From the human T2T-CHM13v2.0 reference genome, Homo sapiens, in the NCBI RefSeq assembly GCF_009914755.1, contig NC_060934.1: a stretch of 64,000 nt of DNA; one strand, 5' to 3'. The translations under genes were made by a program, and so were the position numbers. The notes beneath the pieces were generated by a model. That model was not told where the DNA came from. It saw only the letters and a list, made by a program, of their open reading frames with translations, and did not search any database. Each line of letters begins with the position of its first letter. The first letter of the stretch is position 1. Below are positions 46,851 to 49,012 of the stretch, piece after piece.

Positions 46851-46949
46851 CCTTGCGGTGAAATCCACAGCAGCCGCTCGGTTTAACAGCAACGTGGCTA
46901 CATTGATATTTCCATAGTGAGCAGCTATGTGGAGCGGAGTGAAGCCACT
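46851..46949 (-). CDS. ANK3: ANK3 coding exon (exon 7), 99 nt, [33 protein letters not shown]
   Basis: Acceptor tgttttctttacag, donor AGG|GTAAGA (cttac 46846-50). Within ORF 46698..46973. Confidence 0.97.
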
Positions 46950-48117
46950 CTGTAAAGAAAACATAGCAGACATTCAATTGATTCCTGCCAGCCCCCTGCC
47001 TGACAGGCAAATATCATAACCCTGCCCAAATAAAAATGAGGAAGCAAAATATGCTGAGGTCTATGTTCCATTCTGTACTAGGTTTCGATCAGTGCCAATT
47101 GCTCACAGGGTTTCTAATAAACCCCAAACTTACAGGCAGAAGAATAGCCAGGGAGGAACCAAGGGTGGAGACTGAGCAATTTTAGTAATCCAATAACAGA
47201 ACTATATAAAAGCCAACATTTCAAGAAATTAAGATAGAGATGAGAAAAATCTTTATAGCTGATAGCTTGATTAGTGCCGCTGTTTTATTACTGACGATAG
47301 AATTGTGCATTGAAACTCAAAATTCAATTAGTTTATATATTTGATATAGATTCATATTACTGAACAGTAAATGCCAATTTTCATGACAAAAGCAGTTTTG
47401 GGGGGAAGACGTACTACCACAAAGTTGGTTTTATATAATGGGCAATTGTATTCCATGAAGAATCCACAAGTTAATCTCTTTGTTAGCCAATGCCTATTCA
47501 ATAACACATGTTTTTGGATTGTTCATACCAAGGTCATTTTACTTCCTTAAAAAATGCTAAAACATGCAGCGATTCACTTAGTCCCCAAAGATTGAAACCT
47601 TATAGGAACTAGATGCATTTCTAATTTGTTAGCAAGCTTCTTAGCCATGCTAGCTATCTCACTGAGTCTTGTAGAAGGGTGGGTCATATTGACACCATTC
47701 TGAAATACCTTTCCTTTTGCTGACACCACAGAGGGTAAGTGTCATGCACAACCCTAAAAAACGAGTCCTGGATGAGTAGAATGACAGGGTTGTCTGCAGC
47801 TTTAGATATAGCTGATAAACATCTAAAGTGTCCAGACTCTTCATCTCACACAGCTCTATTGCAATACCCTTAAGAGTCAAGGATTCCTCATCTCTTTCAA
47901 ACACCAGGTTCAGCTGCAGAAAGCCCTGGTAATCAAACTACTGCTATCTTATCTGGCACATGCTCCTTTGGGGAGAGGAGGGATTGGGGATAAAGCAGGT
48001 ATCTAGCCTACAGAAGGCGATGCAAAGAAGAAGGGAGAGACATGAGGCAGCAGCACTAAGTCATGGGAAAATGATGATGCAGATATAGACTACACGTATA
48101 TGCATATATATATATAC

Positions 48118-48141
48118 CTCTGTTGTTCTATTCACCACCAT
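48118..48141 (-). CDS. ANK3: ANK3 alternative 24-nt microexon, ATG GTG GTG AAT AGA ACA ACA GAG = MVVNRTTE
   Basis: Flanked by TAG acceptor (plus ct 48142-43) and GAG|GTATAT donor (ac 48116-17), with an upstream pyrimidine tract and ACTAAC. Phase 0/0. The peptide is 7/8 identical to the MMVNRTTE insert at the equivalent position in ankyrin-B. Confidence 0.93.
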
Positions 48142-48195
48142 CTAGGTTAACACATTTGGAAGCAAAGAGGAGGAAAAAATGAACGGTTAGTTCAC
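48142..48195 (-). promoter_or_regulatory. Microexon 3' splice region: ACTAAC branch point (48186-91), pyrimidine tract (48165-79), UGC (48162-64)
   Basis: Minus strand reads gtgaactaaccgttcattttttcctcctctttgcttccaaatgtgttaacctag. Confidence 0.8.
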
Positions 48196-48826
48196 TATTG
48201 GTGATATGGATTGCAGAAAGCTCATGACAGCTAAGTAATGAGGATGGAAGCTCTGATGAAAGCACAATAGGCACAGAAAGAAAGCTAGACTGAATGATGG
48301 GCTACGCAACGGCCTAGTCCAAATGTCACATTTCCGTCACAGAGACTTTCAGGTACCACATGTCAAGACGATGGGAATTTTTGGCTGCGGCTCTCTTGCT
48401 GCTGGCATGCTTTCCGCAGCTGATCTACGCTCAGTGCCTGGCCTGTCATCTTGGGTATCAACCAGAGGTTTGTTTGTGTACACTGTCTTCAGTATTTTGT
48501 AATTTTTCGCCCTGATGTTTGAGCTGAACTGTTGAATATATTCCAAAACTATATTCAAAGGAAAGAAATGATCACTGCATAGAAATTGATTTCTTCTGAG
48601 GTGGCCTCCCTTTTAGCACGCATAGGGCCGCATTCCCCTCACCCCCCAACTTCTCATGTGAAGGGAGGCTGTGCCTTCAGTGGCTAGCTCAGACACACAT
48701 TGTTCCTCCCTTCAATGAAGTTAAAGGCATGGCATAAGCTTGCGAAGAGGGAGACCGGGTGCTCTTAAAGGTTGTGTGTCTAACACCGGAGAGTTGCATG
48801 ACAGGCCCGTGTCCCTCGTGCCTCAC

Positions 48827-49012
48827 CTTTGATTCCACATCTGCATTGTTGTCATTCTGCAGCAGCAGGGCGGCGGCTTTCGTGTCGTCTTTTCGGGCCG
48901 CGATATGAAGAGCTGGGAGACGCACTTTTCCTTTGGTGTCATTCTCTAGCAGGAGCGAAACGACTTGGTCGTGACCTTGTTGCAAAGCCACTGCCAATGG
49001 TGTGAAGCCATC
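48827..49012 (-). CDS. ANK3: ANK3 coding exon (exon 6), 186 nt, [62 protein letters not shown] (shortened repeat plus next repeat)
   Basis: Acceptor atttatttgcag, donor AAG|GTGAGG (cctcac 48821-26). Within ORF 48689..49108; locally CpG-rich. Confidence 0.97.

What the first reader, a model, noticed from the sequence alone, without database searches (positions are those of the whole stretch)
47560..48195. Complete neural-microexon regulatory code around the 24-nt exon
Seen on the minus strand. Upstream: ACTAAC (48186-91, ~46 nt upstream), a pure pyrimidine tract (48165-79), then UGC (48162-64) before the AG. Donor: non-consensus GAG|GUAUAU followed by (AU)n. Downstream: a UCAU-UCAU-CCAU cluster (~48062-79) and two UGCAUG elements (47743-48, 47563-68). 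Known: UGC between tract and AG is the SRRM4/SRRM3 enhancer; downstream YCAY and UGCAUG are NOVA and RBFOX activating positions; ACUAAC is both the SF1 branch point and the QKI site. Inference: inclusion in neurons and possibly QKI-mediated repression in glia, of interest given ANK3's neuropsychiatric links.
Basis: partly seen in the sequence, partly recalled or inferred. Interest (0 to 1): 0.7.

Follow-up and report, generated by a model that had tools for sequence, protein, structure and literature searches.

The report
Known neuron-enriched ANK3 mini-exon, regulators unproven

Summary
All motifs are at the stated coordinates. They flank a real in-frame 24-nt ANK3 cassette exon (48141-48118, minus strand) that adds 8 residues between ankyrin repeats 6 and 7. 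The exon is already known: Ensembl ENSE00003979629, 'Region 1' of Falck 2026, about 10% included in human frontal cortex, almost never in corpus callosum, and about 6-fold higher in mouse neuronal than oligodendrocyte nuclei. So the neuronal prediction holds. The peptide recurs in ANK3 from shark to lizard, in a paralogous ANK2 exon and, more loosely, in amphioxus and molluscs. The 'complete code' is overstated. A published mouse table classes this exon as neural but not SRRM3/4-regulated. YCAYs are denser upstream than downstream, both UGCAUGs are distal, and the branch ACUAAC lacks a QKI half-site. Best reading: a weak-donor, low-inclusion exon, probably switching late after birth and likely MBNL-activated. 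No regulator has been tested directly.

The parts
48118..48141 (-). 24-nt cassette microexon encoding MVVNRTTE, between ANK repeats 6 and 7; Ensembl ENSE00003979629, mouse ENSMUSE00001258555, VastDB MmuEX0004909
   Evidence: homologous inserts; paralog
48186..48191 (-). ACUAAC, predicted branch site (A at -46); SF1/QKI core motif without a UAAY half-site within 20 nt
   Evidence: use as branch point is inferred
48178..48196 (-). Predicted 7-bp hairpin that presents UAAC of the branch site in its loop
   Evidence: z -2.05, 11 of 200 shuffles fold as well; the longer fold is not significant, z -1.09; coordinates
48164..48179 (-). 16-nt pure pyrimidine tract, displaced about 20 nt from the AG; AG-free zone 51 nt
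48162..48164 (-). UGC at -23, candidate SRRM3/4 element; function doubtful
48142..48143 (-). acceptor AG of the microexon
48105..48120 (-). non-consensus donor (no U1 pairing at +4/+5) running into (UA)6; the ANK2 paralog's donor also lacks +4/+5 pairing
48063..48077 (-). three YCAY in 15 nt (+41, +44, +52), candidate NOVA cluster
48008..48040 (-). second strong acceptor (17-nt pyrimidine run, UGC, AG at 48009-48008), 111 nt after the microexon donor; frame closes after 24 codons; candidate poison or terminal exon
   Evidence: highest pyrimidine fraction of 122 AGs in the two introns; mouse VastDB row lists an acceptor at +124
48179..48300 (-). upstream YCAY-rich stretch (9 in 200 nt), in the position where NOVA is recalled to repress
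   Evidence: 84 of 6380 windows as dense
47743..47748 (-). UGCAUG at +370, candidate distal RBFOX site
47563..47568 (-). UGCAUG at +550, candidate distal RBFOX site
48827..49012 (-). upstream constitutive exon (ANK repeats 5-6)
   Evidence: hub annotation
46851..46949 (-). downstream constitutive exon (ANK repeat 7)
   Evidence: hub annotation

Best explanation
This is an annotated, neuron-enriched 24-nt ANK3 cassette exon that adds eight residues between ankyrin repeats 6 and 7; it is likely skipped by default because of its weak donor and displaced pyrimidine tract, and likely activated in maturing neurons mainly through the downstream YGCY (MBNL-type) cluster, with SRRM3/4 probably a minor player. 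Shown (sequence or cited data): the exon, its frame, low inclusion (about 10% human cortex, 15-30% mouse), neuronal bias, the paralog in ANK2, and non-eMIC classification in mouse. Inferred: late postnatal timing (a table row matched by elimination), MBNL as activator, and extra help from NOVA, RBFOX or relief from QKI. At protein level the insert is predicted to lengthen the R6-R7 finger loop at the border of binding sites 1 and 2 without bending the solenoid, which would fine-tune partner binding.
For: Exon and frame. Known and neuron-biased: (human cortex 6961 and 8696 reads, callosum 5 and 8; mouse nuclei OLIG vs NEU log2FC -2.69, adj P 2.3e-9; ASTRO vs NEU -2.07, adj P 2.2e-5). Weak donor shared with ANK2. 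'Neural', not eMIC-dependent or -sensitive. PMC5989265 Dataset S5 has an Ank3 coding exon (CA-sr-chr10f-1585, module M1+) rising from 0.3% at E14.5 and 1.8% at P0 to 11% at P15 and 25% in adults, which matches this exon's adult level. That paper ties late switches to Mbnl and puts nSR100/SRRM4 with early ones. YGCY cluster: 20 of 6390 windows hold one as tight. Models with and without the insert both fit the straight AnkB solenoid (rmsd 3.3 and 2.6 A), and only the included form has a low-confidence segment, in that linker.
Against: The developmental row has no coordinates and was assigned by elimination only. The exon is absent from the Mbnl/Rbfox/Nova/Ptbp target table (0 of 6 Ank3 rows), so MBNL control is untested. 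The YGCY cluster was found after trying four motif types on two sides at two window sizes. The ANK2 paralog has only two YGCY in that zone. A low-PSI exon can miss the eMIC thresholds, so SRRM3/4 is not excluded, and the acceptor does look like an SRRM-type acceptor. MBNL is also expressed outside neurons (recalled), so a repressor or co-activator is still needed for the cell bias. Mouse corpus callosum showed 15-30% inclusion, unlike human.
Confidence: 0.45

Rival explanations
1. One reading: a classical neural microexon driven by SRRM3/4 at the UGC, helped by NOVA and RBFOX downstream.
For: Distal branch site and tract, UGC and a 51-nt AG-free zone fit the described architecture. The joint pattern is unique among 4599 AGs. 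The ANK2 paralog also has a UGC, at -8. Neuronal bias is real.
Against: Classed non-eMIC in mouse. Not among the 4 ank3 rows of the zebrafish conserved neural exon table. Donor is weak, whereas SRRM-type microexons are described with consensus-like donors. More YCAY upstream than downstream. No UGCAUG within 300 nt; the constitutive downstream exon also has a UGC at -19.
Confidence: 0.2
2. Cell bias is set mainly by repression: QKI, abundant in glia, outcompetes SF1 at the ACUAAC branch site, which a small hairpin would present in its loop.
For: ACUAAC lies in the -60 to -20 zone described for QKI-repressed, SF1-activated exons. Near-zero inclusion in human callosum. Predicted hairpin.
Against: Strong QKI repression needed two elements or a half-site in the tested case; here the next UAAC is 36 nt away, outside the 1-20 nt rule. 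In Qk-deficient oligodendrocyte brains Ank3 is listed under 'exclusion', with no gained exon (exon not named). The paralog has no upstream ACUAAY and instead a full element downstream.
Confidence: 0.2
3. Part of the 'downstream code' serves the second acceptor at +111. The YCAY and YGCY clusters sit 40-70 nt upstream of it and would silence a poison or terminal exon, not activate the microexon.
For: Most pyrimidine-rich of 122 AGs in the two introns, with its own UGC; frame stops after 24 codons. The mouse VastDB row lists a downstream acceptor at +124.
Against: No such exon in the full-length mouse nanopore table, although those amplicons cannot show a terminal exon. Candidate donors are weak. 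Equivalence of mouse +124 and human +111 could not be checked.
Confidence: 0.1
4. Most downstream motifs are chance matches, and other factors (CELF, ELAVL, PTBP) or core splice-site strength set inclusion.
For: Single motifs are common. None of the downstream NOVA or RBFOX features recurs in the ANK2 paralog, and intron similarity between paralogs is not significant (34 of 500 shuffles).
Against: Two tight clusters lie within 75 nt of the donor. The upstream intron length is kept between mouse and human (684 vs 685 nt).
Confidence: 0.05

Closest known systems
ANK3 'Region 1' exon (ENSE00003979629; mouse ENSMUSE00001258555; VastDB MmuEX0004909), Falck et al. 2026, PMC13646255
   Same: The same exon: 24 nt between the 186- and 99-nt exons, 684-nt upstream intron in mouse vs 685 here, and the paper's mouse probe matches the window exon at 21 of 23 letters (compared by eye). 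Neuronal bias already measured.
   Different: In what I read of that paper, no cis-elements, regulators or protein effects are addressed.
SRRM3/4 (eMIC)-dependent neural microexons
   Same: Short, frame-preserving, conserved, neuron-biased; distal branch site and tract with a UGC before the AG.
   Different: Weak donor, low inclusion, probably late timing, and classed as not eMIC-regulated in mouse.
ANK3 microexon E35a (PMC12713133)
   Same: Same gene, neuron-restricted, with an ANK2 paralog.
   Different: A different 27-nt exon between the UPA and death domains, with shown regulators (Ptbp2, Celf2, SRRM4, Mbnl) and a knockout phenotype.
ANK2 paralogous 24-nt exon (G000:C4:116546322-116546345)
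   Same: 21 of 24 nt and 7 of 8 residues identical, same position and phase, weak donor, UGC before AG; present in AnkB crystal constructs.
   Different: No upstream ACUAAY, a full QKI element downstream, no YCAY cluster, UGCAUG only at +867; carried by 36 of 39 ANK2-type proteins against 33 of 68 ANK3-type.
QKI/SF1 branch-point competition exons such as RAI14 exon 11 (PMC13004596)
   Same: ACUAAC in the branch zone.
   Different: Single ACUAAC, no nearby half-site.

Membership tests
neural microexon | 3-27 nt, frame-preserving, AG/GU-bounded exon | tested here: met
neural microexon | higher inclusion in neurons than other cells | tested here: met
   published data read, not re-measured
neural microexon | deep conservation | tested here: met
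SRRM3/4 (eMIC)-dependent microexon | UGC between tract and AG, distal branch site | tested here: met
SRRM3/4 (eMIC)-dependent microexon | consensus-like donor | tested here: not met
   no U1 pairing at +4/+5; expectation
SRRM3/4 (eMIC)-dependent microexon | inclusion drops on Srrm3/4 loss | tested here: not met
   grouped 'Neural', not eMICdep or eMICsens; raw dPSI not seen, and low PSI could hide an effect
NOVA-activated exon | downstream YCAY cluster dominating over upstream | tested here: inconclusive
   tight cluster downstream, but 9 upstream vs 4 downstream in 200 nt
NOVA-activated exon | CLIP peak and knockout response | not testable with these tools
   exon absent from the target table
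RBFOX-activated exon | UGCAUG in the proximal downstream intron | tested here: inconclusive
   only +370 and +550; conservation across mammals not testable; not kept in the paralog
QKI-repressed exon | ACUAAY core upstream in the branch zone | tested here: met
QKI-repressed exon | second element or UAAY half-site within 1-20 nt | tested here: not met
QKI-repressed exon | gain of inclusion on QKI loss | tested here: inconclusive
   Ank3 listed as 'exclusion', exon unnamed; supplement not read
MBNL-activated late-switch exon | downstream YGCY cluster | tested here: met
   (post hoc)
MBNL-activated late-switch exon | switch at about P7 or later | tested here: inconclusive
   matching row identified by elimination only
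MBNL-activated late-switch exon | loss in Mbnl1/2 knockout and CLIP peak | not testable with these tools

The most novel reading that the evidence does not exclude
An ankyrin microexon as old as bilaterians runs on an SRRM-independent, late-maturation switch: MBNL activates it in mature neurons, QKI blocks a hairpin-presented branch site in glia, and the same downstream elements silence an adjacent poison or terminal acceptor, coupling an 8-residue change at the Nav/neurofascin site border to ANK3 dosage.
Probability: 0.12. Interest if true: 0.6.

Novelty: already known. Interest (0 to 1): 0.3.

Why it matters
ANK3 is a bipolar-risk gene, and this exon changes the membrane-binding groove at the border of site 1 (used by Nav1.2) and site 2 (used by neurofascin). 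The rat AnkG sequence listed for soma-targeting constructs includes the insert while the selected human RefSeq lacks it (hub table), so laboratories may be using different forms unknowingly. The exon and its neuronal bias are in print. What remains open and testable is which factors control it and what the loop does. If it proves MBNL-driven, it would be a candidate mis-spliced exon in myotonic dystrophy brain (inference).

Tried and rejected
ANK1 paralog: a peptide-like match in the 1206-nt intron has no AG/GT borders, so it was rejected; no convincing copy. Homology of ANK2 and ANK3 intron flanks: looks alike by eye but is not significant (34, 372 and 26 of 500 shuffles). Idea that the insert biases a hinge near repeats 5-6: the included model fit AnkB (3.3 A) and not ankyrin-1 cryo-EM (15.6 A), but the skipped model did the same (2.6 vs 12.1 A), so there is no support. 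Repeat or duplication artefact: the region is single-copy and holds no tandem array at the exon. Long-range RNA structure over the exon: z -1.09. Regulator tables: coordinates not found in PMC5989265 supplements and the exon is not in Dataset S9. Full-text search for six identifiers of the exon found 0 papers. Peptide-word search found only a construct table. The nematode unc-44 paper text held gave no microexon passage. PMC11188260, PMC6429586 and PMC5779224 passages did not concern this exon. The mouse heart exon table omits it. A protein-database check of the second acceptor's 24-codon frame could not be run, so its use stays open.

Full report
Observation. They flank a 24-nt segment, 48141-48118, bounded by AG and GT and in frame between the annotated 186- and 99-nt exons; it encodes MVVNRTTE. 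Against the window's own background the single motifs are modest: UGC 28% of 25-nt windows, ACUAAY 3% of 60-nt windows, the YCAY triplet 1.4% of 100-nt windows, two UGCAUG 0.9-6.5% depending on window size. The acceptor as a whole is unusual: a post hoc joint rule picks 1 of 4599 AGs.

The exon is real and old. Among the best 120 of 5869 homologs listed (many are isoforms of one species, so rows are not independent), 33 of 68 ANK3-type proteins carry an 8-residue insert matching at 7 of 8 positions, 34 skip it and 1 has an unrelated insert. Of 39 ANK2-type proteins, 36 carry it. Of 13 invertebrate proteins, one amphioxus protein has an 8-residue and three mollusc proteins a 9-residue insert at the same site. 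Both forms occur within single species. Whether the invertebrate inserts are separate exons was not checked, and convergence on the ankyrin finger motif is possible. Human ANK2 has a paralogous AG/GT-bounded exon, 21 of 24 nt identical; ANK1 has none that I could find. The AnkB crystal construct holds the insert, and a published rat AnkG sequence does too (10.1101/773069, passages).

The exon is known. Falck et al. 2026 (PMC13646255; I read parts 1-4 of 8 of the text, part 1 of the spreadsheet and searched rows; figures not seen) call it Region 1, ENSE00003979629. I did not lift coordinates between assemblies; identity rests on exon order and sizes, the 684 vs 685-nt intron and the probe match. 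Human nanopore reads show about 10% inclusion in frontal cortex and almost none in corpus callosum. Sorted mouse nuclei show about 6-fold more of the included form in neurons than oligodendrocytes and 4-fold more than astrocytes; these are abundances, not PSI. Mouse callosum showed 15-30%, which does not fit the human result. The published ANK3 microexon E35a is a different exon (PMC12713133, passages and section 5).

The proposed code, factor by factor. SRRM3/4: the acceptor fits the described layout (10.1101/2024.09.17.613571, passages and section 10). However, PMC8797185 Table S2 (supplement rows and passages) lists the mouse exon as 'Neural', defined as not eMIC-regulated, while the 27-, 33- and 12-nt Ank3 exons are eMIC-dependent or -sensitive. 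It is also absent from the zebrafish conserved neural exon table (PMC12626424 supplement, 4 ank3 rows). The donor lacks U1 pairing at +4/+5, as in ANK2. Low inclusion could hide a real effect, so this lowers but does not exclude SRRM control. NOVA: the downstream triplet is outweighed by 9 upstream YCAY; that upstream clusters repress is recalled. RBFOX: both sites are distal and not kept in ANK2. QKI: the core motif is well placed (PMC13004596, passages), but no half-site lies within 20 nt, and the Qk-deficient oligodendrocyte table lists Ank3 only as 'exclusion' of an unnamed exon (PMC5548867, passages). A small predicted hairpin holds the branch UAAC in its loop (z -2.05).

First, three YGCY in 10 nt at +63 to +72, one of two such clusters in the 64-kb minus strand. 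In PMC5989265 (section 9, passages, supplement rows) one unplaced Ank3 coding exon rises from 0.3% at E14.5 to 25% in adults. The other two unplaced rows fit the levels of the 12- and 99-nt exons, so by elimination this row is probably the 24-nt exon. Late switches there are tied to Mbnl, and SRRM4 to early ones. The exon is not in that paper's target table, so this is a lead and not a test. Second, the most pyrimidine-rich of 122 AGs in the two introns lies 111 nt after the donor and opens a frame that stops after 24 codons; the mouse VastDB row lists an acceptor at +124. Some 'downstream' motifs may act on it.

Protein effect. The insert falls between repeats 6 and 7 (PMC4449188 Table 2), the border of binding sites 1 and 2 (PMC4358367 section 7). 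Models of a fish ANK3 fragment with and without the insert (21-row alignments) both form a straight solenoid. Only the included form has a low-confidence stretch, just before the insert, consistent with a looped-out linker. The models give no sign of a hinge effect and may echo the solved AnkB structure.

Verdict. The regulatory claim is partly contradicted (SRRM3/4) and otherwise untested. Ten paper searches found no study of this exon's regulators or function. Subscription papers, VastDB itself, bioRxiv supplements and the supplements of the QKI papers were not seen and may hold such data. Interest 0.3.

Noticed in passing
window 48040-48008 (-): Strong unannotated acceptor 111 nt after the microexon donor, with a second AG 5 nt on; frame stops after 24 codons; nearest AATAAA at 47289. 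Possible poison or terminal exon; mouse VastDB lists an acceptor at +124.
   Followed up: partly
window 48104-48020 (-): Three UGCAY within 100 nt of the donor (+14, +37, +94); only 3 of 6390 windows are as dense (post hoc). Binding factor unknown.
   Followed up: no
L004:919-934 (ANK2, +74 after the paralogous exon): A full bipartite QKI element lies downstream of the ANK2 exon, the activating side, whereas ANK3 has its ACUAAC upstream; the paralogs may respond to QKI in opposite directions.
   Followed up: no
window 48118-48141: The second residue is V in human and rat ANK3 but M in the non-mammalian ANK3 and ANK2 proteins listed; the insert resembles the ankyrin finger-loop pattern and may replace the residues before it in the hairpin.
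   Followed up: partly
window 48827-49012: This exon encodes two repeats in 62 instead of 66 residues; ankyrin-1 cryo-EM structures differ strongly from the straight models over this fragment.
   Followed up: partly
window 47989-47966 (-): A third pyrimidine-rich AG at 47965 (rank 2 of 122).
   Followed up: no
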